Source: Deltaproteobacteria bacterium (GTDB taxonomy: Bacteria; Desulfobacterota; GWC2-55-46). From it: DNA of 64,000 nt. The notes beneath the pieces are model-generated. The model saw nothing but the letters and a program-made list of their open reading frames with translations, was not told the origin of the DNA and searched no databases. Each line of letters opens with the position of its first letter. The stretch's first letter is position 1. The position numbers were made by a program, and so were the translations under genes. The stretch is taken from the NCBI GenBank assembly GCA_016219015.1, contig JACRCL010000031.1, positions 22,159 through 86,158 of the forward strand, written 5' to 3'. This document shows, piece by piece, positions 2,485-62,765 of the stretch.

Positions 2485-2512
2485 AAAAAAAAACCAACCC
2501 TGGAAAGGTTGG
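2485..2512 (-). terminator. intrinsic terminator-like hairpin between the histidine kinase gene and modB
   Basis: On the minus strand: CCAACCtttccagGGTTGG followed by a T9 run. Confidence 0.55.
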
Positions 2513-2638
2513 CTTGCGTGAGAATCTCCTTTCCAACAAGGGAGGCAAGGCCGTTTCCAGCGCGTGCCCTGACGGCCAAGCCCCTTAGGCGGTTCAAGCC
2601 CTTAGGGGTATTGGCTCGGAGATTGAATTAACAAGTCT

Positions 2639-16744: not shown

Positions 16745-16758
16745 CTTTCACATTCACC

Positions 16759-16800
16759 GATAACCGATAACTGATAACCGATAACTGATAACTGATAACC
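16759..16800. repeat. heptanucleotide tandem array, 6 units of GATAAC(C/T) (rc (A/G)GTTATC)
   Basis: gataaccgataactgataaccgataactgataactgataacc. Lies between the cbiXC stop and the cbiMN start. Confidence 0.9.
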
Positions 16801-16803
16801 GTC

Positions 16804-17832: not shown

Positions 17833-17897
17833 CGTGTACGCCCTTTCCCTTAAACCGGTTTCTACCCTTAACAAGCTGCTGAAAAACTATTTTAGTC

Positions 17898-17988
17898 TGT
17901 CATTCTGAGCGGAGCGAAGAATCTCGGGGCTGATTGAATCAACAAGTTACGGGATTCTTTCGTCGCCTTCGGCTCCTCAGAATGACAA
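17898..17988. repeat. MITE-like imperfect inverted-repeat element, family A copy (TGTCATTCTGAGCGGAGCGAAGAATC ... GATTCTTTCGTCGCCTTCGGCTCCTCAGAATGACA)
   Basis: Terminal inverted repeats of about 26-35 nt around a 20-nt core. Inserted between the riboswitch terminator and the cbiXC start. A second copy lies at 37212-37300. Confidence 0.8.
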
Positions 17989-18000
17989 CTTCGTGGATTT

Positions 18001-18250
18001 AAATAAAAAAACCCCGCCTTCGTATGAAGGTAGGGCTCCCCAAAAAATATACCAGCCCTCACCTTCTTTACCTTCGAAGAGCCTCGTGAGGATTATCCGG
18101 GCAGGTATCCTGACTTACGGCTTCGTCCTAATCTCCGCGCCTTCCCGGCTTGAGGCCAGTGGCGGTTTGCGGATTTCGTAGCCGATTACAGTGGCGGGTC
18201 CGTTCCCGAATCTCTGCTCAAGCAGACCACGGGATTCCCTTTTAGCCCCT
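18001..18250 (-). promoter_or_regulatory. cobalamin (AdoCbl) riboswitch with terminator-type expression platform, heading the cbi operon
   Basis: The minus strand reads AAAAGGGAATCCCGTGG...GACCCGCCACTGTAA...GCCACTGGCCTCAAGCCGGGAAGGCG. This matches the B12-box and conserved GGGAA/GCCACTG core. A hairpin plus T7 run follows at about 18001-18040. Confidence 0.8.
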
Positions 18251-18357
18251 TGGCGGGCCACCCGGACAAGCTGTTAAATGATTACATTTCAGTGCAGGCA
18301 AGTCAATACAAATCAAAATGGCGGGACCCCCGGTCCCGCCATCTAATAGCATATATG

Positions 18358-18465
18358 GGTATGCCGGCCTTGACCCGCCGCTTTAGCGGCGGGTCAAGGC
18401 CGGCAAATAAAAATGATTTTCCATACCATCAAATTCTCCGTCATTTATAGCGGAGAATTTTCATC
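18358..18465 (+). repeat. interspersed repeat family B copy 1 (contains an 18-bp perfect hairpin CCGGCCTTGACCCGCCGC/GCGGCGGGTCAAGGCCGG and a terminator-like stem-TTTTCAT)
   Basis: Shares about 110 nt with 23452-23563 (GGGTATGCC...CAAGGCCGGCAAATAAAAATGA..TTCC.TACCATCAAA.TTCTCCG.CATTTAT.GCGGAGAATTTTCAT). Confidence 0.8.
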
Positions 18466-20790: not shown

Positions 20791-20795
20791 GCAGG

Positions 20796-20843
20796 CTTCA
20801 AATAAGTCCGTCTGCTTCGTTGGCATCGTCTTGTCATAACGTA
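20796..20843 (+). repeat. short interspersed repeat, family E copy 2
   Basis: CTTCAAATAagTCCgtCtGCTTCGTTGGCaTC...GTCATAACGTA. Homologous to 16695-16744. Confidence 0.7.
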
Positions 20844-20941
20844 AGGTGAGTACGTCTCATTCCTAAGCTCCTTGCCGCCTCGCATCCGGGGCTTTTTGAG
20901 CAGCCTGAACACGCACAGCGCACTGAAGAGAACAAAATAAA

Positions 20942-23336: not shown

Positions 23337-23450
23337 TGAACACGCACAGCGAGCGCATTCCCCGCTGCTTGCGGCGGGGTTTAGCGAGCGAATCGAAATT
23401 TTTTCCTTTTGTGTCGAAGATTCCCCGCAGCTTGCTGCGGGGAGATTCAA
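23337..23450 (+). repeat. family C two-hairpin element copy 1 (sense orientation, 207 nt upstream of the CopD/HemJ-like gene)
   Basis: TGAACACGCACAGCGAGCGCATTCCCCGCTGCTTGCGGCGGGGTTTAGCGAGCGAATCGAAATTTTTTCCTTTTGTGTCGAAGATTCCCCGCAGCTTGCTGCGGGGAGATTCA. It is the exact reverse complement of 24698-24810. Confidence 0.9.
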
Positions 23451-23451
23451 T

Positions 23452-23563
23452 GGGTATGCCAGCCGCAATCCCGTCGCTTTAGCGCCCAAGTCAAGGCCGG
23501 CAAATAAAAATGACCTTCCGTACCATCAAAATTCTCCGCCATTTATGCGGAGAATTTTCATTA
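23452..23563 (+). repeat. interspersed repeat family B copy 2
   Basis: Homologous to 18358-18465. Ends in TTCTCCGCcatttatGCGGAGAATTTTCAT (stem plus T-run). Confidence 0.8.
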
Positions 23564-23656
23564 TTGATTTCCGTCATTTTAAAGGTAAGATTTTCATGTG
23601 ATATTCTATAAGTTCAAACGCCTGAAAAAGACTTCCGAAAATACAGGAGGGAACGG

Positions 23657-24151
23657 ATGTTATTCTATTTGATGCACATAGTGCATCTTCTGACGGTGAT
23701 ACTCTGGATAGGGGGGCTTGCCTTCGTCACGATGATAGTGCTCCCAATGGCGATAAAGACCCCGGACGCGTTGCAGAAGGTACTGCTCTTCCAGAGGGTC
23801 GAGCACAGGTTCGCGAAGGTCGCGAGGGGCTATAACCTCGTCACAGGCGCATCGGGCATTATAATGATGCTCCTGATGGGCTGGCATAAGCTCCTCTTTA
23901 CAAGGGCCGGGATACCCCTTACCGTCATGACGCTCGTCTGGGTCTTCTGGTTCGTCATGCTCTTCGGGCTGGAGCCCTTCATAATAAAGAAGATGCTCGA
24001 CAGGATGGCCAAAGGCGGGGCGCAGATGGACATAGACGCCGTCTTTACGCGGCTGAACAGGATGCATTACTTCATGGTAGCCATCTCCCTTGCGGCCGCG
24101 GCCGCCGGGGCGCTTACAGCCCACGGCCCGTTCTCGGCCTATCTCGGCTGA
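23657..24151 (+). CDS. polytopic membrane protein, CopD/HemJ-like (DUF-type) hypothetical
   Basis: 164 aa, 4-5 TM, conserved His in TM1 (MHIVHLLTVILWIGGLAF). AGGAGGG RBS. Confidence 0.5.
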   Translation: MLFYLMHIVHLLTVILWIGGLAFVTMIVLPMAIKTPDALQKVLLFQRVEHRFAKVARGYNLVTGASGIIMMLLMGWHKLLFTRAGIPLTVMTLVWVFWFVMLFGLEPFIIKKMLDRMAKGGAQMDIDAVFTRLNRMHYFMVAISLAAAAAGALTAHGPFSAYLG

Positions 24152-24693
24152 GTCCGGGGGGTGGAGGTTTGCCGGGTGGCTTTAAGAGAGCTATTGCCCT
24201 CTACCGCGAGGAGCGCCTTTTTTATCCCGACCCCGCCGGTATAGCCGCCGAGCCCGCCGTCGCCTTTGACGACCCTGTGGCACGGCACGATTACCGGCGC
24301 CGGGTTGGCGCCGCAGGCGTTGCCCACGGCCCTTGCGCCATGCGGTTTCCCAATTTGCCCGGCTATCCAGCCATAGCTCTTAACCGAGCCCCACGGTATG
24401 GACCTGATCGCCTCCCATACCTTTTTTTGAAAAGGGGACCCTGAAAGGGCCAGGGGCAGGTCGAACTCCACGGGCCTGCCCTTGAAATACTCATCGAGCG
24501 TCTTGAACGCCTTATTGAAGAAGGCTTTGTCCTCTTGCGGCAGGGCCCCGTACCTGGCCTTTGTCCTTCTTAAAAAGCCCTTTTCATCGCCTATCGAGAC
24601 TTCCGCTATCTTCCCGTCTATAGCCAAAATAAAGACCCTGCCTATGGGGGCGCGGTAGCAGGCGAACGATATCATGCAAGTTTTTTTCTTCAT
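24139..24693 (-). CDS. ogt: methylated-DNA--protein-cysteine S-methyltransferase
   Basis: Active-site motif VPCHRVV and HTH GKPHGARAVGNACGANP. The ORF-track start 24738 (MCRRFPAACCGEIQR) translates the family-C repeat. The likely start is MKKK at 24693. Confidence 0.8.
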   Translation of the reverse strand: MKKKTCMISFACYRAPIGRVFILAIDGKIAEVSIGDEKGFLRRTKARYGALPQEDKAFFNKAFKTLDEYFKGRPVEFDLPLALSGSPFQKKVWEAIRSIPWGSVKSYGWIAGQIGKPHGARAVGNACGANPAPVIVPCHRVVKGDGGLGGYTGGVGIKKALLAVEGNSSLKATRQTSTPRTQPR

Positions 24694-24697
24694 CCTT

Positions 24698-24810
24698 TGA
24701 ATCTCCCCGCAGCAAGCTGCGGGGAATCTTCGACACAAAAGGAAAAAATTTCGATTCGCTCGCTAAACCCCGCCGCAAGCAGCGGGGAATGCGCTCGCTG
24801 TGCGTGTTCA
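24698..24810 (-). repeat. family C two-hairpin element copy 2 (sense strand is minus; abuts the ogt start)
   Basis: Identical (as reverse complement) to 23337-23450. Its 3' end, ...GGGGAGATTCAAAGG, runs into the ogt ATG. Confidence 0.9.
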
Positions 24811-24905
24811 TGATAAACCGGGAGCGCCCCGGAAGGCAAACCCTTTGTCCTTTGACTTATCTTTTTGATTCTGATATTTTGGAAAAAGCAACCCTAACCA
24901 CTGCC

Positions 24906-25412
24906 ATGAAGAAAGTAATCTACATATTAAATGACCTTGTTAAAAAAGGTATTGTCGAGAGATACGCCATCGGCGGAGCTGTGGCGGTTATTTTCTATGC
25001 GGAAACCCTGAACACCAAGGATGTTGATGTTTTTGTAACCACTCACGTAACAAGGTCGAAAACAGGTATTGTCCATCTCGGTTCCATATACGAGCACCTA
25101 AAAAAAGCCGGCTACAAGATGGAAGGCCAGTATTTTATCATTGATGGTGTTCCCGTTGACTTCATAGCCGCTTATGACGAACTTACCCTTGAGGCAGTAG
25201 ATGACGCTGTAGGTAGATTATATGATAAAATTAAAGTGAAGGTTTTCCGGCCTGAATATCTCATAGCTATAGCCTTACAGACAGGAAGGCCGCAGGATTT
25301 AAGAAAGATTGATCTGTTGACGACCGAAACTAAGCTTGACGGAAAACTTTTGAAGGATATTTTGAAGCGTCACGGCTTAATTGAAAAATGGAGAAGTTAT
25401 AACAATGGATAA
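24906..25412 (+). CDS. minimal nucleotidyltransferase-fold protein (pol-beta superfamily, hG[GS]...DxD), hypothetical; within a low-GC island
   Basis: YAIGGAVAVIFYAETLNTKDVDVFV (GG...DVD) plus the downstream acidic FIIDGVPVDF. Putative TTGACT-N17-TATTTT promoter at 24853-24881. Locally about 38% GC. Confidence 0.5.
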   Translation: MKKVIYILNDLVKKGIVERYAIGGAVAVIFYAETLNTKDVDVFVTTHVTRSKTGIVHLGSIYEHLKKAGYKMEGQYFIIDGVPVDFIAAYDELTLEAVDDAVGRLYDKIKVKVFRPEYLIAIALQTGRPQDLRKIDLLTTETKLDGKLLKDILKRHGLIEKWRSYNNG

Positions 25413-25599
25413 GGAAAGATATTTCAAAGAAGCTAAAAAATTTAATGCGAAGGTTTTTGCGTCAAAAGAAAAGATGCGAAAGACCTGGGCAAAAAAGGCT
25501 GTAAAGGAAAAAATCAAGGAACTTGTGAAACTCCATGAGATGACTGCGGCTCTACATCCAGAATTGAGGAAAATTATCCCTTGGAGATTAAAAAAGTAA
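25405..25599 (+). CDS. small lysine-rich protein, translationally coupled to the nucleotidyltransferase-fold gene (ATGGATAA overlap)
   Basis: 64 aa, MDKERYFKEAKKFNAKVFASKEKMRKTWAKKAVKEKIKELVKLHEMTAALHPELRKIIPWRLKK. Its start codon overlaps the upstream stop. No HEPN Rx4-6H motif. Confidence 0.4.
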   Translation: MDKERYFKEAKKFNAKVFASKEKMRKTWAKKAVKEKIKELVKLHEMTAALHPELRKIIPWRLKK

Positions 25600-25815
25600 A
25601 TTTACATGAGTTATTCGTCGTAGAACTTGATGAACTTTATTGAGGGAATATTACAATCAGAAAACCAAGTTAGAATGTTTAGGTTTTGGTAAAAAGTTTA
25701 AACAAAATAAGGGGTGATGAAAATATGCCGTCTGAAATCTCAGGGTTGGCTGTAGAATTGTTAGAAGCAGAAGGTTTCACAATTCACGTGCGGCATAATC
25801 CTGCAAAATATCAAA

Positions 25816-25854
25816 AGAGATAGAAACCCTGTAAGGTTTATCTCTTTATTTTTT
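25816..25854 (+). terminator. intrinsic terminator at the end of the low-GC island
   Basis: AGAGATAGAAACCctgtaaGGTTTATCTCT followed by TTATTTTTT. Confidence 0.7.
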
Positions 25855-25928
25855 AGGGCAAAACGGGAAACCAAGCCATAAATCAAGGGGTTAAGTTTTT
25901 ATTATAAAACCACTTTCACGGAGGTAAC

Positions 25929-26318
25929 ATGAGAAAGATTTCAGCCGCTTCCTGTGCGCTTTTAGCGGCCCTGCTCCTCTTTGCCTTTTCTCCCGCCTTT
26001 GCCGGCGGCGGGCATACGGTGATAACAGGGCCCGAGCTTGAGACGATGATGAAGGACGGCAAGCCCGTCGTTGTAGTCGATGTGAGGGAGCCGGAGCTCT
26101 TCGCGAAAGGCCATGTACCCGGCGCCATAAACATCCCGTACGAGACCGCGCGCGGCAGGATATTGAAGGAGCTCTCGCCGAAAGACAGGATAGTATTTAT
26201 CTGCCACGGCGGGCCGATGGGCGACGAGCTCGGAGAGGTGCTCACGAACAACGGCTACGGGAGCGTCTATAACGTAAAGGGCGGGATGAGGAAGTGGTCC
26301 GGGCCTCTGGCCAAATAA
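25929..26318 (+). CDS. secreted single-domain rhodanese (sulfurtransferase)
   Basis: Signal peptide. Catalytic Cys loop ICHGGPMG. HVPGAINIP. Confidence 0.8.
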   Translation: MRKISAASCALLAALLLFAFSPAFAGGGHTVITGPELETMMKDGKPVVVVDVREPELFAKGHVPGAINIPYETARGRILKELSPKDRIVFICHGGPMGDELGEVLTNNGYGSVYNVKGGMRKWSGPLAK

Positions 26319-26713
26319 TGAACTTCAAGCTCATATTCATATTCTGGGCCGTGATGGTCGTGATAGCGATTGTAAACGGGTACTTCGGGCAGGCGGTCGT
26401 GTCAAAGGCCCTCGGCGATTACGGCTCACACCTCTACAGGACGTTCTTCATAATAGCCGTGATATTCGTATTCTCGAACGTCTACATCCGCAAGACCGGC
26501 CTTGGCGGGGAGCTTACGCCCGCCCTCCTTACCGGCCTTTCCTGGCTGGCGCTCAGCATTACCTTCGAGTTCGGGTTCGGCCATTTCGTCTTCGGCTTCC
26601 CGTGGGAGAAGATAACCGGCGAGTACCGCTTGAGCGAGGGGAGGCTCTGGGCGCTGGTGCTCGCCTCCGAGGTGATAGCCCCTGTCGTGAACTCCTTTAT
26701 CCTCAGGCCTTGA
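26318..26713 (+). CDS. hypothetical 4-TM membrane protein
   Basis: The ATG overlaps the rhodanese stop (TAATG). Hydrophobic profile only. Confidence 0.45.
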   Translation: MNFKLIFIFWAVMVVIAIVNGYFGQAVVSKALGDYGSHLYRTFFIIAVIFVFSNVYIRKTGLGGELTPALLTGLSWLALSITFEFGFGHFVFGFPWEKITGEYRLSEGRLWALVLASEVIAPVVNSFILRP

Positions 26714-26760
26714 GACCAAAGACCCATCCCAAAGTGACTCACGCCAAAGGGGTTGCCGTG

Positions 26761-27297
26761 TCAACGCTGGTAGACCCCTATTGTCTTCGCCTCCGCCAGT
26801 ATGTGCCCTTTCATCGCCCTCTCCACCTCGTTCTTACGCGCCCCGTTGGGTACGCCGAGCGTCGGGACATCGAGGGCCCGCAGGGTAAAGACATACCTGT
26901 GACGGCCATGCCCTTTGGGCGGGCACGGCCCTCCGTAGCGCGCCTGCCCGAAATCGGTAAGGCCCTGCTTTAGGCTGTCCTTTAGCCCCTCGGTCCCCGC
27001 GCCCCTCTCCAGCCCCTGCAGGTTTGAAGGGAGGTCATAGACGACCCAATGGACGAACGTCCCCATCGGGGCGTCCGGGTCCTCCACCGTGAGGACGAAA
27101 CTCTTTGTGCCTGACGGGGGGTTCTCCCATACAAGCTGAGGTGACAGCCCCTCGCCCTCGCAGCTGAACTTCTTTGGTATCACCTCTCCCTCCTTGAAGT
27201 CCTGACTTCCAAGCCTGAAGCCCATGCCCTCACCCCCTTTAGAATAGGTAGCCGCACAGAGCAATATACATAAAGCGGCAATTGATATTTTCAACAT
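26761..27297 (-). CDS. YbhB/YbcL-family (PEBP / Raf-kinase-inhibitor-like) protein, secreted
   Basis: PEBP motifs (LTVEDPDAPMGTFVHWVVYDLP, GGPCPPKGHGRHRYVFTLRALD). Start MLKISIAAL has a signal peptide. The ORF-track N-terminal extension translates the family-C repeat. Confidence 0.8.
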   Translation of the reverse strand: MLKISIAALCILLCAATYSKGGEGMGFRLGSQDFKEGEVIPKKFSCEGEGLSPQLVWENPPSGTKSFVLTVEDPDAPMGTFVHWVVYDLPSNLQGLERGAGTEGLKDSLKQGLTDFGQARYGGPCPPKGHGRHRYVFTLRALDVPTLGVPNGARKNEVERAMKGHILAEAKTIGVYQR

Positions 27298-27413
27298 GAA
27301 TCTCCCCGCGGCAAGCCGCGGGGAATCTTCGACACATAAGGAAAAATTCGATTTCGATTCGCTCGCTAAACCCCGCTGCTTGCAGCGGGAAATGCGCCCG
27401 CCATGCGTGTTCA
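27297..27413 (-). repeat. family C two-hairpin element copy 3 (about 90% identity), with its 3' end overlapping the PEBP start codon
   Basis: TGAATCTCCCCGCGGCAAGCCGCGGGGAATCTTCGACACATAAGGAAAAATTCGATTTCGATTCGCTCGCTAAACCCCGCTGCTTGCAGCGGGAAATGCGCCCGCCATGCGTGTTCA. Confidence 0.85.
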
Positions 27414-27597
27414 TGCCGGCCTCAAAAGAAAAGCAATTTTTATCATGCCTGTAATTGTAAGTTTATCCCATATCAAGGCTTTTGCAACCTGTACTTTAGT
27501 ACGTGTGTGTACGGAGCACTCACACGCTTCATAACGTTTGACTTGAAAAAGGGGCTGAAATCATATACCAATAACAGTGAAGCTAAGGAGGCCCTTT

Positions 27598-28482
27598 TTG
27601 AAAGTCCGTTTTATAATAAACCCGGCGGCAGGCGGCAGGAAGAAGGCGGCCGCCGTCTCGGAGGCCGCTTCCCGGCTGCTTAAATCCGAAGAAGGCGTCT
27701 TCGAGGTCAAGGTAACGAAAGCGCGGGGCGACGGCAGGGCCCTGTCGGCCGAGGCTGTAAGGAAAGGGTACGACATAGTCTTCGCCTGCGGGGGCGACGG
27801 CACGGTCAACGAGGTCGCCACCCCTCTCGTGGGCACGGAGACGGCCCTCGGCATAATACCGGCGGGCTCCGGCAACGCGCTCGCTCGCTCGCTCGGGATA
27901 CCTGAGGGTATCGATCAGGCAATCGGCCTTATCAAGGGATCGCGCTTCAGGAAGATAGACGCCGGGGTCATATGCGGCAGGCACTTCTTCTCTACGGCGG
28001 GGGCGGGCTTCGACGCCTTCCTCAGCAAAAAATACAACGAGGGGTACGTCTGCAGGAGGCTCCGCGGGCTGCTGCCCTATTTCCCCCTGGCGGCCTTCGA
28101 ATACCTGAGGTACAGGCCCGTGCCGATGACCGTAAAGTCCGGGGGCCTCGTCCGTGACGTCGCCCCTTTCATCCTTACAGCCGCCAATACGGAGCGGTAC
28201 GGCGGGGGCGCGGTCATCGCGCCGGGCGCAAGCCTTGACGACGGGCTCCTCGACCTCTGCATCATAACCGACATGAACATCCTCCGGGCCGCCGGCCTCG
28301 CTTTTAAGCTCTTCTCGGGGAAGGCCGACAGAAGCAGGGGCTTTACGAGGATAATGACCGACAGGGTCGGGATAGAGGCTTGCGGGCCGATAATAGCGCA
28401 CGCGGACGGCGAGCCGTTCGAGTGGAGGGGCGATATCTCGATAGAGGCCCTGCCCGGAGCGCTCAAGGTCCTCGTACCATGA
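27598..28482 (+). CDS. diacylglycerol kinase catalytic-domain family lipid kinase (YegS/DagK-like)
   Basis: FIINPAAGG ... ACGGDGTVNEV ... GIIPAGSGNALARSLG. TTG start at 27598, 8 nt after AAGGAGG. The ORF-track GTG 27577 contains the RBS. Confidence 0.8.
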   Translation: MKVRFIINPAAGGRKKAAAVSEAASRLLKSEEGVFEVKVTKARGDGRALSAEAVRKGYDIVFACGGDGTVNEVATPLVGTETALGIIPAGSGNALARSLGIPEGIDQAIGLIKGSRFRKIDAGVICGRHFFSTAGAGFDAFLSKKYNEGYVCRRLRGLLPYFPLAAFEYLRYRPVPMTVKSGGLVRDVAPFILTAANTERYGGGAVIAPGASLDDGLLDLCIITDMNILRAAGLAFKLFSGKADRSRGFTRIMTDRVGIEACGPIIAHADGEPFEWRGDISIEALPGALKVLVP

Positions 28483-28524
28483 CTTGGCTTGAACAAACGC
28501 CCGTTTTAAGGTATCATATGGCGC

Positions 28525-29793
28525 ATGGGCAGCACCTTGGATAACATAGGGGCGAACAGGTTATCCGGCCATACCGCTGGGATCAACGTCAAAGACCGGG
28601 CCTTCCAGGAACTCTCCTCAAAAGAAAAGCTCGAAACGGCCTATAAGCACCTCGAGGACCTCCGGCAGCTTAACGGCGGCTACATAGCCTCCGACTACTG
28701 CGGCGACAAGGGCGGGGACAATTACAACGTCTTCTGGCTCAGGGACATCATGCTCGCCACGAACGCGAACGAGTACGTCGGCGCGTACGACAAGATGATA
28801 GAGAGCTACAGGCTCATCATCCGGATATTCCAGAAATACCACCACAAGATAATACGCGGGGCGCGCAAGCGCCATTACCTCGGCAGCTGCGCCGGAGAGG
28901 TGATACACGCGAGGATACACCCCGTGACCCTCGAAGAGATAACGAACGAGTGGGGCCACCACCAGCTCGACATATTCGGGCTTTTCCTCTACAAGACCGG
29001 CGACCTCATGAAAAAGGGGCATAACGTCATATCCACGGACAAGGCCGAGACGCTTATCCTGCTCAGGGACATCGTCCTATACCTTACGACCGTCCGCTGG
29101 CACTCCGACCCCGATTTCGGGGTATGGGAGGAGGGGCCTGAGATCCATTCATCGAGCGTCGGCGCCGTGCTCGCCGGGCTTACGATGTGGCACGACGACG
29201 GCTACTACCACCACAAGTACAGGAACCAGACCCCGCTGCACAGCCACCTCCCGATACCGCAGGAGTTCATTGAGCGGGGGCGGGAGGCGCTGAACAGGCT
29301 CCTTCCGAACGAATCGGCCTCCCGGCCCTACGACCTCGCGCAGCTCAGCCTCATATGGCCTTATTCGATCATAACCGATTCACAGGCGGCCCAGATACTC
29401 GGCAACATAGAAAATAACCTCGTGAGGAAGTGGGGTGTCATAAGGTACCCCGGCGACCTTTATTACAACGGGGACAGGTCGAGGCCCCAAGGCAACGAGG
29501 CGCAGTGGCCGCTCGGCTTCGCGTGGCTGAGCATCATATATTCCCAGATGGCCGTGAGGGCGATAGAGTCCGGCGCGGTCTTCAGCCCCCTTACAGAGCT
29601 GATAGAGAAGTCCGGGATGTACCTCAAAAGGCTTGAGTCCGTGATGACCGCGGACGGCAAGGTCCCGGAGCTTTACACCGCGGGCAAGACGAACTCCAAC
29701 GTGCCCCTCGCGTGGGCGCAGGGCTTCTATATAGTGGCCCGCCAGAACCTTGACCGGGTCTGCGAGAAACTCAATATCCGCAAGATAGCCTGA
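28525..29793 (+). CDS. glycoside hydrolase family 15-like protein (glucoamylase / glucodextranase-related, (alpha/alpha)6 barrel)
   Basis: Conserved GH15-type segments (NVFWLRDIML..., DIFGLFLY, VWEEGPEIHSSSVGAV, WGVIRYPGDLYYNG ... NEAQWPLGFAWLS). Confidence 0.65.
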   Translation: MGSTLDNIGANRLSGHTAGINVKDRAFQELSSKEKLETAYKHLEDLRQLNGGYIASDYCGDKGGDNYNVFWLRDIMLATNANEYVGAYDKMIESYRLIIRIFQKYHHKIIRGARKRHYLGSCAGEVIHARIHPVTLEEITNEWGHHQLDIFGLFLYKTGDLMKKGHNVISTDKAETLILLRDIVLYLTTVRWHSDPDFGVWEEGPEIHSSSVGAVLAGLTMWHDDGYYHHKYRNQTPLHSHLPIPQEFIERGREALNRLLPNESASRPYDLAQLSLIWPYSIITDSQAAQILGNIENNLVRKWGVIRYPGDLYYNGDRSRPQGNEAQWPLGFAWLSIIYSQMAVRAIESGAVFSPLTELIEKSGMYLKRLESVMTADGKVPELYTAGKTNSNVPLAWAQGFYIVARQNLDRVCEKLNIRKIA

Positions 29794-29928
29794 AGCGCCT
29801 TTGTTCTCCATCCGAACCGGAAAAATTCCAGCCCTCTGATATATTTAAATAATGGACTGAAGCCCTGCCCCGCCCTGCCGGCGGCGGCACGCAAACATGC
29901 AAAGGCGCGGCGGCCTTACGGTCAGATT

Positions 29929-30780
29929 ATGAACCCTATAGCGTTCAGGGCCACCCTCATAAACATAATCGGGAACACATCCCTTTTCGCTCTTAAATTG
30001 ACGGCCGGGCTCCTCTCCGGCAGCATCGCGCTCATTTCCGACGCCCTCAACTCTTTCAACGACATAGCCGCGGCCATAGCCACCTTCATCTGCGTAAAGA
30101 TATCCGACAAGGCGGCGGACGAGGGACACCCCTTCGGCCATAACAGGGCCGAGCCTATCGCCGGGCTCATAATAGCGGTACTCGCCGGCATACTCGGGTT
30201 CGAGATGATAAGGGAGGCGATAGAGCGGATCCTCATGGGCACGAAGGCCGAGATCAGCTTATTTACCCTCCTCGTCCCCGTGGTCACCATGGTGACGAAA
30301 GGGCTCATGTCCTGGCACTTCCGCAGGGTCGGCAGGATGTTCAACAGCCCCGCCCTTACGGCGACGGCCCTCGACTCCCTGATGGACGTGCTCGTGGCCG
30401 TGGCGGTGCTCGTCGGCATCGCTGGGGTGAGGCTCGGGTGGGGCTTCCTGGACCCGATGGCGGCGTTCGTGATAAGCCTCTGGATAATCTATACGGGCTA
30501 CAGGATAGGGCTGGAGAACATAGCTTATCTGATGGGGCAGGCGCCTTCGCCCGAGATGCTCGAAGAGATACGGAGGGCGGCCCTGGACGTGAATGGAGTA
30601 AAGGCCCTTGATAAGGTCAAGGCCCATTATGTCGGGAACTTCATCCACGTGGAAATACATATAGAGGTGAATAAGGACCTCTCCACCCTCGAATCCCACG
30701 CCATAGGCGAGGAGGTCGAAAGGAGGGTTGAGAGCATCGGGCTCATAGATAAATCATTCGTCCATATAAACCCGGCCTGA
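29929..30780 (+). CDS. cation diffusion facilitator family transporter (FieF-like)
   Basis: LALISDALNSFND ... HPFGHNRAEPIAGL. 6 TM plus a cytoplasmic C-terminal domain. Confidence 0.85.
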   Translation: MNPIAFRATLINIIGNTSLFALKLTAGLLSGSIALISDALNSFNDIAAAIATFICVKISDKAADEGHPFGHNRAEPIAGLIIAVLAGILGFEMIREAIERILMGTKAEISLFTLLVPVVTMVTKGLMSWHFRRVGRMFNSPALTATALDSLMDVLVAVAVLVGIAGVRLGWGFLDPMAAFVISLWIIYTGYRIGLENIAYLMGQAPSPEMLEEIRRAALDVNGVKALDKVKAHYVGNFIHVEIHIEVNKDLSTLESHAIGEEVERRVESIGLIDKSFVHINPA

Positions 30781-30792
30781 TGGATTTACGAC

Positions 30793-32427
30793 ATGGAAAA
30801 TCTCCTTGAAGGGCTCGATAGAGAACAACGCGAGGCCGTATCCTCAAGCTCGAAGCGCCTCCTCGTAGCCGCCCCTCCGGGCAGCGGCAAGACAAGGGTG
30901 CTATCCCTGAGGTTCGCCCGGCTTATAAAAGACGGCGTTGACCCGTCCACGCTCCTTGCCGTCACTTTTACGAACAGGGCCTCTATCGAGATGAGGGAGC
31001 GGATCTCGGCGCTCCTTCCCATAGACCCGGCGCTCCTTAATATCGGCACATTCCACAGCTCCTGCCTGAAGCTCCTTAAAAAAAAGACGCCCCTGCCGGT
31101 ACTCTACGGGAGGGAGGAGCAGAGGAAGGTATTGGCCTCCCTCGGGGCAAAGAGGATCGACACCCTTCTGGAGAGGTTCTCCTCTTTCAAGAATTCCGGC
31201 GTCCCCCTCTCCGAAGAAGAGCAAGCGGCCTTTCACGCCTATCGTGAAGCCCTCGGCTCGCAAGGCGCCCTCGACCTCGACGACCTCGTCCCCGAAGCTA
31301 TAAGCCTCATTGAAAAAGAACCGGGTATATCCCCTTTCCTCCATCTCCTCGTTGACGAGTATCAGGACATAAACCCCGTGCAGGCAAGGCTCGTAAGGCT
31401 CCTGGCGAAAGAGTCCGTATTCGCCATAGGCGACCCCGACCAGGCGATATATTCATTCCGGGGCTCGAGCGTCAGGGCCTTTACGGGCTTTACGAACGAT
31501 TACCCCGGCTGCGAGGTGATAAACCTCAAGAGGAACTACCGCTCTTTTGCTTCGATTGTGAACGCCTCCTCGGCCCTGATAGCGCATAACACCGACAGGA
31601 TTGAAAATACAGCCCAGGCTTTGAAGGAAGGCGGGGAGATAACAGCCGTGGAGTGCGGCTGCGAAAGGGCGGAGGCCGGCTTCATCATAAAGGAGATAGA
31701 GGCCATGATGGGAGGGCTCAGCAGCCTCACCGTAAAAGACCACGGTGACCTAAAGTTCTCGGACTTCGCCGTGCTCTTCCGCACGAACAGGCAGGGGGAA
31801 GCCCTGGCAGAGGCGTTCGGCAGGTCGCCCCTGCCCTACCACTACGCGGGGCCTCCGGGGGGCGGTTTTTATGGGTTCATGGAGGCCCTCAGGGCCTCCG
31901 AGATAAAAGACGATATATCGCTTCCCGGCCTGATAGAGGCTACGGGCAAGGCCATCGCGGCGGATAGATACCTTTCAGGCCTTTTCCTCCACTCCGCGAA
32001 AGCCTTCGGCAGCCGCCCGGCGAAAGATGTCTTGCCGCAATTCCTCGACGAGATGCTCCTGAGCGGCCCTTCCGACAACCTCGATATAAAGGCCGACAAG
32101 GTAAACTTACTAACGCTCCATTCTGCAAAGGGGCTCGAGTTCAGGGTCGTATTCATAGCGGGGTTCGAGGACGGCCTGATCCCGTTCACCCCGAAATGGA
32201 ATGAGGCGGATATAGAGGAGGAAAGAAGGCTGCTCTACGTGGCCATCACCCGCTCAAAAGAAAGGCTTTACCTCGTCTCTTCGGACAAGAGGAAGGTCTT
32301 CGGAGAGGAGATACGCCCCGAGCGCTCGCGCTTTTTAAAAGAGCTGCCCCCGGCGCTTTTAAAGAAAAGGACCATCGAGCAAAAAAAGTTAGTAAGAAAG
32401 CCCGTGCAGAAGGGGCTGTTTGAATAA
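30793..32427 (+). CDS. UvrD/Rep/PcrA-family ATP-dependent DNA helicase (short, 544 aa)
   Basis: Motif I AAPPGSGKTRV, motif II VDEYQDINP, FRGSSVRAF. Motif VI-like TLHSAKGLEF ... LLYVAITRSK. Confidence 0.8.
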   Translation: MENLLEGLDREQREAVSSSSKRLLVAAPPGSGKTRVLSLRFARLIKDGVDPSTLLAVTFTNRASIEMRERISALLPIDPALLNIGTFHSSCLKLLKKKTPLPVLYGREEQRKVLASLGAKRIDTLLERFSSFKNSGVPLSEEEQAAFHAYREALGSQGALDLDDLVPEAISLIEKEPGISPFLHLLVDEYQDINPVQARLVRLLAKESVFAIGDPDQAIYSFRGSSVRAFTGFTNDYPGCEVINLKRNYRSFASIVNASSALIAHNTDRIENTAQALKEGGEITAVECGCERAEAGFIIKEIEAMMGGLSSLTVKDHGDLKFSDFAVLFRTNRQGEALAEAFGRSPLPYHYAGPPGGGFYGFMEALRASEIKDDISLPGLIEATGKAIAADRYLSGLFLHSAKAFGSRPAKDVLPQFLDEMLLSGPSDNLDIKADKVNLLTLHSAKGLEFRVVFIAGFEDGLIPFTPKWNEADIEEERRLLYVAITRSKERLYLVSSDKRKVFGEEIRPERSRFLKELPPALLKKRTIEQKKLVRKPVQKGLFE

Positions 32428-32630
32428 TAGCAGTTAATGTCTTAAACCAAACCCCCTATCCCTCCATCCCTTTTTCTCCCGAACCTGACAAATGTCATAT
32501 TTAACCCCTCTATTTTATTCACTTTTTTTGGGTTTACCTCTAACCTGCCCTTAATCTCTATGTAGTATAATGGAATCAAGATAAGAACGAAAAACGAACT
32601 CTAACGATTTAGCTTACAGGAGGTGGAAAG

Positions 32631-32735
32631 ATGGAAAGGGACAAGAAGATAGCGAACGCGATATATGTCGGTGTAGCGGTTCTCTTTACGACGATAATGC
32701 TCGCCGGGGCCTCGCTTCCCGGATACTGGGCGTAA
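32631..32735 (+). CDS. micropeptide 1 of a tandem paralogous trio (34 aa, single TM)
   Basis: MERDKKIANAIYVGVAVLFTTIMLAGASLPGYWA. GGAGGTGGAAAG-ATG RBS. TATAAT -10 at 32569-32574. Not in the ORF track (below the 60 aa cutoff). Confidence 0.5.
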   Translation: MERDKKIANAIYVGVAVLFTTIMLAGASLPGYWA

Positions 32736-32912
32736 CCTTAAAGCTACCTCTAAAAATTGTTCTTTTTCCTGATCTCTGTGTCAGGGCAAAAATAAAAATG
32801 CTCACATATTACCATATATGCTCCGCTTTTTATTTCCGCCCTTCCTTGACCTCAGAAAAAATTCCTAATTTTTAGAGGCACCCTTAAAAAAACTTTAACG
32901 GAGGATAAAAAA

Positions 32913-33017
32913 ATGGAAAAGGAAATAAAGATAGCCAACGGGTTCTACGTGGGAGTGACGGCGTTCCTTACCGCGGTCATGCTCTTCTCAGGCAATATCA
33001 CCGGGTACCTGGCGTAA
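32913..33017 (+). CDS. micropeptide 2 (34 aa, single TM)
   Basis: MEKEIKIANGFYVGVTAFLTAVMLFSGNITGYLA. RBS GGAGGATAAAAAA-ATG. Confidence 0.5.
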   Translation: MEKEIKIANGFYVGVTAFLTAVMLFSGNITGYLA

Positions 33018-33042
33018 GGTTTTTTTCAAGGAGGTGATTGGA

Positions 33043-33162
33043 ATGGACAGGGAAAAGAAGATAGCCAACGCGTTATACATCGGGATAGCGGCCCTTTTGA
33101 CCACGGCGATGCTCGCGGGAGCGCTCCTGCTGCCGCGCATGCCTCAGGGGTTCTTCGCGTAG
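33043..33162 (+). CDS. micropeptide 3 (39 aa, single TM)
   Basis: MDREKKIANALYIGIAALLTTAMLAGALLLPRMPQGFFA. RBS GGAGGTGATTGGA-ATG, 25 nt after peptide 2. Confidence 0.5.
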   Translation: MDREKKIANALYIGIAALLTTAMLAGALLLPRMPQGFFA

Positions 33163-33175
33163 GCTTTAAAAAGTA

Positions 33176-33213
33176 AAAAGGAGGGCGGCTTTTAGCCTCC
33201 CTCCTTTTTTTTT
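33176..33213. terminator. strong bidirectional intrinsic terminator closing the micropeptide locus and the convergent DJ-1 gene
   Basis: AAAAAGGAGGGCGGCttttaGCCTCCCTCCTTTTTTTTTT. Confidence 0.8.
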
Positions 33214-33223
33214 ATTTTAAAAT

Positions 33224-33772
33224 TTACACCTTCGCCAATACCCCCTTATTCACCTCTCTTGCCTTTTCCTGCCCGAAGAGCGCCTCCACAAGCCTGAACG
33301 CGAACTCCATCGCGGTACCCGGCCCCTGGCTCGTGATCATGTTACCGTCCACCACGACCCTTTCGTCAGAGACCCGTTCATTCCTCAACTCGTCCCTTAC
33401 GGACGGATGGCTCGTTATCCTCCGCCCCTCTATCGCCCCCATGGCCGAGAGTACCGTCGGGGCGGCGCATATCGCCGTCACAAGCCCCTTCTTCTTTATA
33501 AGGCCCTCAATCACTTTCCTTACGCTGGCGTCCTTCTTGAGGTTCTCCGCCCCCACCGCCCCGCCGGGCAGGACTATCATGTCGAAGTCCGTGCCCGCGA
33601 CCTCGTCCATCAGCCCGTCCGTCAGGACCTTTATCCTGCTCCGGCCCTCCACAGGGCCCTGGACGGTCCCTGCCACGACGACCTCGGCCCCCGCCCTCCT
33701 TAATATATCAACGACCGTCAGCGCCTCTATCTCCTCGAAACCGGGCGCAAGCGGCACCAGGACCTTCTTCAT
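33224..33772 (-). CDS. DJ-1/PfpI family protein (class I glutamine amidotransferase-like)
   Basis: Nucleophile elbow AICAAP. Start MKKVLVP has an AAGGAGG RBS. The ORF-track extension MCRRFPFKGGL translates the repeat. Confidence 0.85.
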   Translation of the reverse strand: MKKVLVPLAPGFEEIEALTVVDILRRAGAEVVVAGTVQGPVEGRSRIKVLTDGLMDEVAGTDFDMIVLPGGAVGAENLKKDASVRKVIEGLIKKKGLVTAICAAPTVLSAMGAIEGRRITSHPSVRDELRNERVSDERVVVDGNMITSQGPGTAMEFAFRLVEALFGQEKAREVNKGVLAKV

Positions 33773-33783
33773 AAGACCTCCTT

Positions 33784-33877
33784 TGAATGGGAATCTTCGA
33801 CACAAAAGGAAAAAATTTCGATTCGCTCGCTAAACCCCGCCGCAAGCAGCGGGGAATGCGCTCGCTGTGCGTGTTCA
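33784..33877 (-). repeat. family C element copy 4 (lacks the promoter-distal... actually gene-proximal hairpin; the 3' end supplies the AAGGAGG RBS context of the DJ-1 gene)
   Basis: TGAATGGGAATCTTCGACACAAAAGGAAAAAATTTCGATTCGCTCGCTAAACCCCGCCGCAAGCAGCGGGGAATGCGCTCGCTGTGCGTGTTCA. Identical to copy 2 except for a 20-nt hairpin deletion. Confidence 0.85.
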
Positions 33878-34056
33878 AGGCATAATCCCCCGAGATTAAT
33901 GGATTATACAGCCTTTTTACCCCTTGTCAAAGACCGCCGCCTGACTTGCGCACCCGTGATTTTAGGTCTAAGATTAAATAGCAGATAAGCGGTCCCGCGA
34001 ACGCTTAGGAATGGCTTTAGACAAGACTGCACAACTAATTAATAAGGAGCGCTGTC

Positions 34057-37118: not shown

Positions 37119-37211
37119 GGATAGCCTCTCTGCGCGGGCCTGTGAAATCGTCCAAAAGCCGCTGACGGGCTTTTACAAACTTTAGGGAAGCTCTGATTAA
37201 TTATGTTTCCT

Positions 37212-37300
37212 TGTCATTCTGAGGGAGCTTTAGCGACCGAAGAATCCCGTGACTTCTGATTTGTCTATATGCGAGATTCTTCGCTGCGCTCAGAATGACA
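37212..37300. repeat. MITE-like inverted-repeat element family A copy 2
   Basis: TGTCATTCTGAGGGAGCTTTAGCGACCGAAGAATC...GATTCTTCGCTGCGCTCAGAATGACA. Lies in the mscS-GT intergenic region. Confidence 0.8.
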
Positions 37301-50068: not shown

Positions 50069-50200
50069 ACCTAAACAGGCCGCTCAAAAAATCCAAATTA
50101 AGCCCAAATTTGATTCAGGCTGCTCAAAATCGAGTGAGCGAGGCCCCTATTGAACTTAGGGGAGCTTAGGAATGGGCGTACTCGCCTTTCGTTATGACAA

Positions 50201-50239
50201 GACGAAGACAACAAAGCAGATGGACTTTTTCAGCAGCCT
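50201..50239 (+). repeat. repeat family D copy 2
   Basis: GACGAAGACAACaAAGCAGATGGACTTTTTcagCAGCCT. Upstream flank similarity (CAAAATCGAGTGAGCGA ~ GAAATTGCGAGCGACGA) extends the element to about 100 nt. Confidence 0.75.
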
Positions 50240-62589: not shown

Positions 62590-62618
62590 TCCTTATTTTC
62601 CATGCTAAGGGAAGCACA

Positions 62619-62737
62619 AGTTATCAGTTATCAGTTATCGGTTAACAGTTATCGGTTATCGGTTATCAGTTAACAGTTATCGGTTATCGGTTATCAGTTA
62701 ACAGTTATCAGTTAACGGTTATCAGTTATCAGTTAAC
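62619..62737. repeat. heptanucleotide tandem array, 17 units of (A/G)GTTA(T/A)C, with a 28-nt higher-order repeat
   Basis: agttatc x3, ggttaac, then [agttatc ggttatc ggttatc agttaac] x2, and so on. It lies directly upstream of the PyrK-like gene start (62589) and is the reverse-orientation counterpart of the array at 16759-16800. Confidence 0.9.
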
Positions 62738-62745
62738 GGTGGCCC

Positions 62746-62759
62746 CTCAGAATGACAAC
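62746..62759. repeat. solo right-arm fragment of MITE family A (CTCAGAATGACAAC)
   Basis: Matches the right terminal repeat of 17898-17988 including the flanking ACTTCG. Confidence 0.6.
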
Positions 62760-62765
62760 TTCGCC

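What the first reader, a model, noticed from the sequence alone, without database searches (positions are those of the whole stretch)
23337..33877. About 115-nt two-hairpin element (family C) placed on the start codon/RBS of four unrelated genes, always in the same orientation relative to the gene
The element TGAACACGCACAGCGAGCGCATTCCCCGCTGCTTGCGGCGGGGTTTAGCGAGCGAATCGAAATTTTTTCCTTTTGTGTCGAAGATTCCCCGCAGCTTGCTGCGGGGAGATTCA occurs four times: 23337-23450, 24698-24810, 27297-27413 and 33784-33877. In each case it lies 5' of a gene in sense orientation. The downstream genes are a CopD/HemJ-like membrane protein, ogt, a PEBP/YbhB protein and DJ-1/PfpI. In three copies its 3' end runs directly into the RBS/ATG (ogt ...GATTCAAAGGATG; DJ-1 ...CATTCAAAGGAGGTCTTATG; PEBP ...GAGATTCATG). 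Copies 1 and 2 are 100% identical and inverted, bracketing the convergent gene pair 23657-24693. Copy 4 carries a clean 20-nt deletion of hairpin 2. Strict orientation bias and the fusion to translation starts suggest a mobile promoter/5'-UTR module or cis-regulatory RNA with two stem-loops, rather than a neutral MITE. The downstream products are stress or detoxification proteins. A truncated 5' piece (TGAACACGCACAGCG) also occurs at 20900-20914.
Basis: seen in the sequence. Interest (0 to 1): 0.75.

Follow-up and report, generated by a model that had tools for sequence, protein, structure and literature searches.

The report
Miniature IS608-like mobile element at gene starts
The repeat is real, but it is a small gene-less "jumping" DNA element of the IS200/IS605 (IS608-like) type that always inserts just after the four bases TGAA, which explains why it sits on gene starts; it is not a dedicated regulatory module.

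Summary
The four copies exist as described. Three share one sequence, although copy 4 lacks 19 nt; copy 3 is about 87% identical. A syntenic relative (~91% nt identity) has the same genes with empty sites at ogt, PEBP and DJ-1. The inserted block is always CACGC...TCAA, placed directly 3' of a TGAA, with no target duplication. At DJ-1 and PEBP the relative's empty site already carries that TGAA. The anatomy matches the published IS608 rules: the left cleavage site lies 19 nt from the first hairpin foot, and the 4-nt guides before each hairpin (CATT, GATT) pair with TGAA and TCAA. The G/C difference between the two sites is mirrored in the guides. I therefore read it as a non-autonomous IS200/IS605-type element (PATE-like). 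Ten more copies or derivatives in four related groundwater MAGs all follow TGAA. Three of these are antisense or in 3'-3' spacers, so orientation is biased, not strict. TGAA is twice as common on the sense strand near starts, and 17% of genes begin NTG-AA. No promoter lies inside the element; pre-existing promoters lie upstream, so it becomes a leader. At PEBP it landed inside ATG|AAG, in frame, and a TCAA>TCAT change made a new ATG. No cognate transposase was found.

The parts
23337..23450 (+). Copy 1. Target motif TGAA 23337-23340; element proper 23341-23450 (110 nt, CACGC...TCAA). It lies 206 nt upstream of the membrane-protein gene, directly after a TATAAT hexamer, and is followed in tandem by a second element family.
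23356..23359 (+). Left guide tetranucleotide CATT of copy 1, directly 5' of the hairpin-1 foot. It pairs with TGAA by the IS608 scheme (c1:g2, c2:g1, c4:g4).
   Evidence: rule from PMC3201880 and PMC5934647
23360..23379 (+). Hairpin 1 of copy 1 (left subterminal palindrome): CCCCGCTG-CTTG-CGGCGGGG. The foot lies 19 nt from the left boundary.
23419..23422 (+). Right guide tetranucleotide GATT of copy 1. It pairs with the terminal TCAA.
23423..23442 (+). Hairpin 2 of copy 1 (right subterminal palindrome): CCCCGCAG-CTTG-CTGCGGGG. Its 3' arm plus tail reads GGGGAG, which is Shine-Dalgarno-like.
23447..23450 (+). Terminal TCAA of copy 1 (right cleavage motif), 8 nt 3' of the hairpin-2 foot. This is the same tetranucleotide as the IS608 right end.
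24697..24810 (-). Copy 2, identical to copy 1. TGAA 24807-24810; element 24697-24806. It is inserted 3 nt after the -10 hexamer of the ogt promoter and ends 3 nt before the ogt ATG (24693-24691).
24810..24839 (-). Pre-existing ogt promoter-like site, TTGCCT-18-TATCAT. It is also present at the empty site in the relative.
27296..27413 (-). Copy 3 (87% identical, older). TGAA 27410-27413 belongs to the original PEBP start ATG-AA (ATG = 27414-27412). The element, 27296-27409, is 114 nt, in frame and open. Its terminal TCAA is mutated to TCAT.
27295..27297 (-). New PEBP start codon ATG, made by an A>T change in the last base of the element (TCAA|G to TCAT|G). It replaces the ancestral codon 2, AAG.
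   Evidence: L008 and L016 both read GGCATGAAGC
33783..33877 (-). Copy 4. TGAA 33874-33877; element 33783-33873, with a 19-nt deletion that removes hairpin 2. It is inserted immediately 5' of the DJ-1 Shine-Dalgarno sequence (AAGGAGG) and ends 10 nt before the ATG at 33772.
33903..33930 (-). Pre-existing consensus promoter of DJ-1, TTGACA-16-TATAAT, about 26 nt upstream of copy 4. It is conserved at the empty site in the relative.
20906..20920 (+). 15-nt remnant: TGAA plus the first 11 nt of the left end. It lies in a 134-nt stretch of repeat debris that replaces a DUF488 gene present in the relative.

Best explanation
The element is a non-autonomous miniature transposable element of the IS200/IS605 kind (PATE-like).

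Proposed mechanism:
- A Y1 HUH transposase (TnpA), encoded elsewhere in the genome, moves it as single-stranded DNA.
- The enzyme would bind the two subterminal hairpins on the top strand.
- The 4 nt before each hairpin (CATT at the left, GATT at the right) would base-pair with the left flank TGAA and the terminal TCAA. This positions cleavage.
- The excised circle would then re-insert 3' of another TGAA, without duplicating the target.

Why it sits on gene starts:
- TGAA is part of ATG-AAx starts and of purine-rich RBS regions on the sense strand.
- Insertions inside genes are lost.
- Surviving copies are therefore enriched just upstream of or on start codons, in sense orientation, where they become part of the mRNA leader.
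- The host genes keep their own upstream promoters.
- The GGGGAG in the right hairpin arm and later point mutations or deletions let the genes stay expressed. Examples are the new ATG at PEBP and the loss of hairpin 2 at DJ-1.

Shown: presence/absence polymorphism, exact boundaries, no target duplication, the TGAA rule, hairpin geometry, guide/cleavage complementarity.

Inferred: the transposase, the single-strand mechanism, transcription through the element, and any effect on expression.
For: Empty sites:
- A syntenic locus from a ~91% identical relative (L008) lacks the element at ogt, PEBP and DJ-1.
- The alignment breaks exactly at the element ends, and there is no target duplication.
- At DJ-1 and PEBP the TGAA is already present in the empty site.

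The TGAA rule:
- All 9 full copies and 5 derivatives, from four MAGs, are immediately preceded by TGAA.
- The intact copies end in TCAA.

Geometry and guides:
- The hairpin-1 foot is exactly 19 nt from the left boundary in every copy, as in IS608.
- The right tail is AG-AT-TCAA. IS608 also has AG after the right foot and TCAA as its terminus (PMC3201880 and PMC5934647).
- Under the IS608 canonical pairs (c1:g2, c2:g1, c4:g4), CATT matches TGAA and GATT matches TCAA at all three positions.
- The single G/C difference between the two cleavage motifs is mirrored by C/G in the guides.

Other support:
- A second, unrelated-sequence family in the same genomes also follows TGAA. It has the guide CAAT ending 19 nt from its boundary.
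- The element is 110 nt with no gene. Identical copies occur in two MAGs.
- Degenerate derivatives exist: one-hairpin minis, and deletions of hairpin 1 or hairpin 2.
- No internal promoter is predicted. Pre-existing promoters lie upstream.
- In 64 genes of the relative, TGAA versus TTCA in -40..+6 is 32:16, and 11 genes start NTGAA.
- PATE-like gene-less IS605 derivatives are documented (PMC10055086).
Against: - No Y1 transposase, RAYT or TnpB was found in the window or in about 190 kb of related loci. That search used remembered query sequences and covers only a small part of the genomes.
- The third guide base is T here, whereas IS608 has an A that inserts into the protein.
- The right tail is 8 nt, against 10 nt in IS608.
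- At the ogt site the relative reads ATTAAATC where the window's flanks read ATGAA|AGG. That site therefore needs three nearby substitutions.
- One subfamily ends ...GATGAAA or ...GATTAAA instead of TCAA.
- Only one independent relative supplies the empty sites. L009 and L012 are identical to L008 over the stretches compared.
- Copy number looks low in public data: the 20-mer found 2 exact hits in one representative MAG and none in metagenome or viral collections.
Confidence: 0.75

Rival explanations
1. It is a dedicated mobile promoter or 5'-UTR regulatory RNA. On this view the two stem-loops act in the mRNA to control a set of stress and detoxification genes, and orientation and fusion to the start codon are selected features.
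For: - In the window all four copies are in sense orientation, and three abut the RBS or ATG.
- Across 14 copies or derivatives, 11 are sense-upstream of a gene.
- Hairpin 2 sequesters a GGGGAG 4-9 nt from the ATG. The RNA folds stably (z = -3.0).
- Each stem has one compensatory pair.
Against: - It is absent from the same genes in a close relative, and those genes keep their own promoter, RBS and ATG.
- There is no internal promoter.
- Three copies are antisense or lie in 3'-3' spacers.
- Neighbours in other genomes are unrelated in function.
- Copies 1 and 2 (and two copies in another MAG) are 100% identical, which is typical of recent transposition, not of old regulatory elements.
- The 11:3 orientation split is compatible with the 2:1 sense bias of TGAA near starts.
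- The junction mutations at PEBP and the hairpin loss at DJ-1 look like repair of damage, not design.
- No Rfam family matches.
- Secondary effects on translation are not excluded.
Confidence: 0.08
2. It is a REP/BIME-type repeat handled by a domesticated RAYT (TnpA-REP) enzyme, rather than by an IS200/IS605 transposase.
For: - It is small, GC-rich, palindromic and intergenic.
- About 50-nt one-hairpin versions exist in three or four genomes.
- RAYTs are also Y1 HUH enzymes that recognise hairpins with a 5' tetranucleotide (PMC3333891 and PMC8266576, listed).
Against: - There is no GTAG/GTGG-type tetranucleotide 5' of the palindromes.
- The two hairpins are in direct orientation with distinct left and right termini, not an inverted REP pair.
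- The insertion behaviour is the IS608 pattern: 3' of a fixed tetranucleotide, a 19-nt left spacing and a TCAA end.
- No RAYT-like ORF was found in the DNA at hand (a weak negative).
Confidence: 0.12
3. It is a classical cut-and-paste MITE with short terminal inverted repeats (TTGAA...TTCAA), moved by a DDE transposase.
For: - The ends read TGAA...TTCA and can pair.
- Size and intergenic location fit MITEs.
- A true TIR-type MITE family is present in the same genomes.
Against: - The left TGAA already exists in the empty sites at DJ-1 and PEBP, so there it is flank, not element.
- There is no target duplication at three sites.
- The inverted match is only 4-5 nt. The G/C asymmetry is explained by the guide rule.
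Confidence: 0.03

Closest known systems
IS608 (Helicobacter pylori) and IS200/IS605-family ends; gene-less derivatives called PATEs (palindrome-associated transposable elements)
   Same: - Insertion 3' of a fixed tetranucleotide without duplication.
- Subterminal hairpins at both ends on the same strand.
- Left cleavage site 19 nt from the left hairpin foot.
- Right end terminating in TCAA, with AG just after the right hairpin foot.
- 4-nt guides before each hairpin that pair with the cleavage motifs (c1:g2, c2:g1, c4:g4).
- No coding capacity, as in PATEs.
   Different: - The target is TGAA, not TTAC.
- The guides are CATT/GATT, not AAAG/GAAT, and the third guide base is T, not A.
- The right tail is 8 nt, not 10.
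- The hairpins are near-perfect, with no obvious extrahelical base.
- No partner tnpA or tnpB has been identified.
- The host is an uncultured groundwater 'Deltaproteobacteria bacterium' lineage.
REP/BIME sequences with RAYT (TnpA-REP)
   Same: - Short GC-rich intergenic palindromes.
- Handled by Y1 HUH enzymes.
- One-hairpin versions occur here too.
   Different: - No GTAG-type motif.
- The hairpins are direct, not inverted.
- There are clear left and right termini and a fixed adjacent target.
Correia elements (Neisseria) and similar MITEs that alter expression of adjacent genes
   Same: - Small repeats found next to gene starts.
- Co-transcribed with the neighbouring gene.
- Able to change its expression.
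   Different: - Correia elements have 26-bp terminal inverted repeats and a TA duplication, and some carry promoters (from my own knowledge).
- Here there are no inverted repeats, no duplication and no internal promoter.
Rickettsia palindromic elements (RPE)
   Same: One copy (PEBP) is inserted inside a coding sequence, in frame and without stop codons.
   Different: - Here the in-frame insertion is a single case, directly after the start codon.
- The gene appears to have escaped it by evolving a new ATG at the 3' junction.
- The comparison with RPE rests on my own knowledge.

Membership tests
IS200/IS605-type non-autonomous element (PATE) | Inserts 3' of a conserved tetra- or pentanucleotide, with no target-site duplication | tested here: met
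   Three empty sites in L008 show no duplication. TGAA precedes all 14 copies or derivatives.
IS200/IS605-type non-autonomous element (PATE) | Subterminal (imperfect) palindromes at both ends on the same strand; no terminal inverted repeats | tested here: met
   There are two 8-bp-stem hairpins in direct orientation. The terminal match is only TGAA/TTCA, and the left TGAA already exists in the empty sites at DJ-1 and PEBP.
IS200/IS605-type non-autonomous element (PATE) | Cleavage motifs recognised by 4-nt guides 5' of each hairpin foot (IS608 canonical pairs c1:g2, c2:g1, c4:g4) | tested here: met
   CATT with TGAA and GATT with TCAA each give three of three canonical pairs, with a G/C to C/G covariation between the two ends. 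This is a sequence test only, not a biochemical one.
IS200/IS605-type non-autonomous element (PATE) | Asymmetric geometry: left site about 19 nt 5' of the left hairpin, right site about 10 nt 3' of the right hairpin and inside the element | tested here: met
   19 nt at the left in every copy; 8 nt at the right, against 19 and 10 in IS608.
IS200/IS605-type non-autonomous element (PATE) | A Y1 HUH TnpA in the same genome, within an autonomous element that has the same ends | tested here: inconclusive
   tblastn with remembered IS200, IS608 and RAYT sequences found nothing in the window plus loci. The whole genomes could not be searched.
IS200/IS605-type non-autonomous element (PATE) | Orientation bias relative to replication (lagging-strand template) | not testable with these tools
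   GC skew in 64 kb follows gene orientation and does not give the replication direction.
REP/BIME with RAYT | Conserved GTAG-like tetranucleotide 5' of the palindrome, and REPs paired in inverted orientation | tested here: not met
   The 5' tetranucleotides are CATT and GATT, and the hairpins are direct.
Cis-regulatory leader RNA / riboswitch-like element | Conserved upstream of orthologous genes in relatives | tested here: not met
   It is absent upstream of ogt, PEBP and DJ-1 in L008, of PEBP in L016, and of PEBP and DJ-1 in L015.
Cis-regulatory leader RNA / riboswitch-like element | Match to a curated RNA family, or covariation beyond what DNA hairpins would give | tested here: inconclusive
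   There is no Rfam match. Two compensatory pairs were found, and 39 of 500 shuffles did as well. A DNA hairpin explains them equally.
TIR-type MITE (DDE transposase) | Terminal inverted repeats of about 10 bp or more, and a direct target duplication | tested here: not met
   The inverted match is 4-5 nt, and there is no duplication at three sites.

The most novel reading that the evidence does not exclude
The family may be more than a passive MITE.

- Its target is TGAA, and its right end carries GGGGAG 4-9 nt from the junction. It could therefore be pre-adapted to land on translation starts (ATG-AA, or just 5' of the Shine-Dalgarno sequence) in the exposed non-template strand of promoter-proximal transcription bubbles.
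- Two window copies sit 3-4 nt after a -10 hexamer.
- It might then act as a portable structured leader that sequesters the ribosome-binding site.
- Alternatively, like some PATEs, it might supply a guide RNA in trans for a TnpB nuclease, with the first bases of the downstream gene as the guide.
Probability: 0.1. Interest if true: 0.6.

Novelty: new member of a known kind. Interest (0 to 1): 0.35.

Why it matters
- It gives a clean natural example of the IS608 guide/cleavage-site rule in a distant, uncultured lineage, read from sequence alone. The rule is retargeted here to TGAA.
- It shows how a fixed 4-nt target can by itself produce a striking apparent association with start codons and a sense-orientation bias that looks regulatory.
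- The PEBP case shows a gene recovering from an insertion into its start codon. The insertion is in frame, and a new ATG arose by one base change in the element's last base.
- For annotation it warns that gene callers extend ORFs through these elements. Examples are the 217-aa ORF at PEBP and the database proteins P0011 and P0012.
- It does not open a new kind of biology.

Tried and rejected
**Searches that found nothing**
- Rfam, at gathering and at E-value thresholds: nothing on the element.
- Exact-pattern scans: the genome collection gave only two true extra copies, both in one MAG, plus two coding-sequence chance hits. The metagenome collection gave only chance hits. Viral contigs gave none.
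- tblastn with remembered IS200, IS608 and RAYT proteins: no hit in the window or loci.

**Other attempts**
- Searching the protein database with the element's six-frame peptides found only two ORFs that run through copies. Both are in the relative's genome. This was useful for new loci, but it shows the element is rare in public data.
- Looking up the window's own contig in the gene-position index failed, because that assembly is not indexed there. The source was instead identified from cluster names.
- GC skew cannot give the replication direction over 64 kb.

**Ideas considered and dropped**
- Composite transposon formed by inverted copies 1 and 2. The enclosed gene pair is in the same place in the relative without copy 2.
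- CRISPR-like orphan repeats. The stem resembles type I-E repeats from memory, but there is no array and the insertion behaviour is clear.
- Intrinsic terminators. No U-tract follows the hairpins, and only copy 3's hairpin 2 passed the loose scan.

Full report
**Observation**

The repeat is present as described. A 43-nt probe from its 5' half hits three times against 0 expected. The central 20-mer and the 16-mer before hairpin 2 each hit four times. The hairpin motif occurs seven times against 0.15 expected.

Limits, counting the leading TGAA:
- Copy 1: 23337-23450 (+)
- Copy 2: 24697-24810 (-)
- Copy 3: 27296-27413 (-)
- Copy 4: 33783-33877 (-)

Copies 1 and 2 are identical over 114 nt. Copy 4 is identical apart from a 19-nt deletion that removes hairpin 2. 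Copy 3 is 87% identical. The 15-nt fragment is at 20906-20920.

All four copies lie in divergent spacers and are sense to one neighbour. Pfam confirms ogt, PBP/PEBP and DJ-1/PfpI. The membrane protein gives only a sub-threshold DUF4149 hit.

**Origin and relatives**

The window's proteins are MBI5493129-142, from a 'Deltaproteobacteria bacterium' MAG on a 187-kb contig. A relative (GCA_040960095.1, locus L008) has the same gene order at about 91% nucleotide identity.

At ogt, PEBP and DJ-1 the alignment stops exactly at the element ends, and the relative has nothing there.
- DJ-1: the empty site reads GCCTTGAA|AGGAGG. The filled site reads GCCTTGAA[CACGC...ATTCAA]AGGAGG.
- PEBP: the empty site reads GGCATGAA|GCTGAAAAC. 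The filled site reads GGCATGAA[CACGC...GATTCAT]GTTGAAAAT.
- ogt: the lengths agree (TATCATGAA[...TCAA]AGGATG against TATCATTAAATCATG), but three nearby bases differ.

At all three sites there is no duplicated target. At DJ-1 and PEBP the left TGAA already exists in the empty site, so it is flank.

At the copy-1 site the relative carries a 45-nt one-hairpin version with the same ends.

**More copies**

- A 20-mer scan of one genome per species found two further identical copies in MAG JACRCJ01.
- A profile search of the fetched loci found more there: a diverged full copy, a hairpin-1-deleted copy and a one-hairpin mini.
- Searching the protein database with the element's translated frames found two ORFs that run through copies in the relative's genome. 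Those gave loci L013 and L014, with two full copies and a mini.
- A fourth MAG (JACRET01, L015) has a mini.
- A covariance model recovers all of these.

Every copy is preceded by TGAA. In every full copy the first hairpin foot is 19 nt from that boundary. Intact copies end AGATTCAA or AGACTCAA.

**What it is**

The published IS608 rules are as follows.
- Cleavage at the left end is 3' of TTAC, 19 nt 5' of the left hairpin foot.
- The right site TCAA lies 10 nt 3' of the right hairpin foot, inside the element.
- Both sites are recognised by 4-nt guides immediately 5' of each hairpin (AAAG, GAAT).
- The element inserts 3' of the target without duplication (PMC3201880 and PMC5934647).
- The stated pairs T-4:A+17 and T-3:A+16 (left) and T-4:A-34 and C-3:G-35 (right) fix the first two pairs of the scheme, c1:g2 and c2:g1. 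A-2 is stated to be unpaired.
- The third pair, c4:g4, I inferred from the IS608 motifs (C:G for TTAC/AAAG, A:T for TCAA/GAAT) together with my recollection of the crystal structure. It is not quoted in the passages I read.

Applied here, the guides are CATT (left) and GATT (right), and the motifs are TGAA and TCAA.
- All three canonical pairs hold at both ends.
- c1 = T and c3 = A at both ends, as in IS608.
- The only difference between the two motifs (G versus C) is matched by the only difference between the two guides (C versus G).
- The two bases after the right foot are AG, as in IS608.

A second family of different sequence in the same genomes (window 18356-18463 and 23451-23560) also follows TGAA. 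It has CAAT ending 19 nt from its boundary, before an inner hairpin.

With only 110 nt and no gene, the element fits the gene-less IS605 derivatives called PATEs (PMC10055086).

I could not find the transposase. tblastn with remembered IS200, IS608 and RAYT sequences was negative in the window and loci, but this covers only a few percent of the genomes.

**Why gene starts and why sense**

- No sigma-70-like promoter is predicted inside the element.
- DJ-1 has a consensus TTGACA-16-TATAAT upstream of copy 4. ogt has TTGCCT-18-TATCAT ending 3 nt before copy 2. Both promoters are also present at the relative's empty sites.
- The element was therefore dropped between existing promoters and start codons, and it is presumably transcribed as a leader (inference).
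- In 64 called genes of the relative, 11 begin NTG-AA. TGAA occurs 32 times on the sense strand of -40..+6, against 16 for its complement. A TGAA-specific, strand-specific inserter is expected to give sense-oriented copies at starts.
- Across 14 copies or derivatives, 11 are sense-upstream of a gene. Three are not: L001 7220-7333 lies in a 3'-3' spacer after a terminator, and L001 5460-5577 and L013 10013-10127 are antisense between co-directional genes.
- By my own binomial arithmetic, about 27% of samples of 14 drawn at a 2:1 expectation would show 11 or more sense copies, so 11 of 14 is not unusual.
- Known preferences of this family for the lagging-strand template and for highly transcribed DNA may add to the bias (PMC5027513).
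- Neighbours elsewhere are cytochrome c, a multicopper oxidase, a 2-hydroxyacid dehydrogenase, DegT and response regulators. The stress-gene association is local: all four window copies fall within 10.5 kb of one Fur-peroxiredoxin-ogt-DJ-1-thioredoxin neighbourhood, and that neighbourhood exists without them in the relative.

**Consequences at each site**

- **PEBP.** The element entered inside ATG|AAG. It is 114 nt long, in frame and without stops, which gives a 217-aa ORF. The orthologues L008 and L016 both read GGCATGAAGC. In the window the last base changed (TCAA to TCAT), making a new ATG exactly where codon 2 was, 4 nt after the GGGGAG of hairpin 2. The same change destroys the right cleavage motif.
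- **DJ-1.** The element sits just 5' of the gene's own AAGGAGG and has lost hairpin 2.
- **ogt.** The relative's gene looks leaderless (TATCAT-6 nt-ATG). In the window it has acquired a 113-nt structured leader.

These look like tolerated or repaired insertions, not a designed module. An effect on translation is plausible but untested.

**Verdict**

The regulatory-module reading is not supported. The best explanation is a new PATE-like family of the IS200/IS605 type with target TGAA (confidence about 0.75). It is a new member of a known kind and of moderate interest.

Noticed in passing
window 18356-18463 and 23451-23560 (+); L013 9908-10017; L008 17790-17899; L013 8191-8290: There is a second ~110-nt two-hairpin element family (TGGGTATGCC...GGAGAATTTTCA). 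It is preceded by TGAA in two copies and by TCAA, TATA or TGTA in the others. It has CAAT ending 19 nt from the boundary, before an inner hairpin. One copy sits in tandem directly after the TCAA of copy 1, and another abuts a family-C copy tail-to-tail in L013. It is probably mobilised by the same or a related enzyme.
   Followed up: partly
window 32747-32885; L008 9842-9979 (inverted): This is a ~140-nt repeat, 95% identical between the two genomes, with terminal inverted repeats (CCTCTAAAAATT...AATTTTTAGAGG). It looks like a classical TIR-type MITE. It occupies the Fur/membrane-protein spacer in the relative but lies in the spacer between the first two small peptide genes (32631.. and 32913..) in the window.
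   Followed up: partly
window 24886-25916: About 1 kb is present in the window but absent from the relative, right next to copy 2. It encodes a DUF2204 nucleotidyltransferase (Pfam E = 3.6e-07) and an overlapping 64-aa basic ORF, possibly a toxin-antitoxin-like pair.
   Followed up: partly
window 20792-20925 versus L008 6605-7150: A DUF488 gene present in the relative is missing in the window. It is replaced by 134 nt of repeat debris. This includes a 54-nt repeat with an inverted copy at 50177-50230, the motif CTTTTTGAGCAGCCTG that recurs next to other elements in L013, L001 and L015, and the 15-nt left-end fragment.
   Followed up: partly
window 17879-17988 and 37193-37300: Another short repeat family is built on TGTCATTCTGAG...GAAGAATC, in inverted copies.
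   Followed up: no
window 62592-62761 and 16753-16802: There are arrays of a 7-nt unit (GTTATCR / GTTAACR), about 24 and 7 units long, on opposite strands.
   Followed up: no
window 32631-33170: There are three tandem paralogous small ORFs (34-39 aa in the relative's gene calls) that begin M-E/D-R/K-x-K-K-I-A-N and carry one hydrophobic helix. They lie between the UvrD-like helicase and DJ-1.
   Followed up: no
window 18083-18280 (-) and 2510-2633 (-): Rfam finds a cobalamin riboswitch (106 bits) and a Moco/tungsten riboswitch (66 bits).
   Followed up: no
L008 11023-11060 (ogt upstream in the relative): ogt in the relative has TTGCCT-17-TATCAT followed by 6 nt and the ATG, with no Shine-Dalgarno sequence, so it looks like a leaderless mRNA. 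The window's copy-2 insertion converts it to a long-leader gene.
   Followed up: partly
L013 10001-10426 (P0011); L014 10001-10588 (P0012); window 26761-27414: Database gene calls run through element copies. One is a 141-aa ORF with no Pfam domain that overlaps an antisense copy. Another is a response regulator whose called ORF starts upstream of a sense copy and reads through it. In the window, a 217-aa ORF extends PEBP through copy 3. I read all three as annotation artefacts of this repeat.
   Followed up: partly
window 23337-33877; L001 1740-7333: Copies are clustered: four within 10.5 kb of the window and four within 6 kb of an 8.4-kb contig of another MAG. This hints at local hopping or a permissive region. 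Both regions were, however, found because they contain the element.
   Followed up: no
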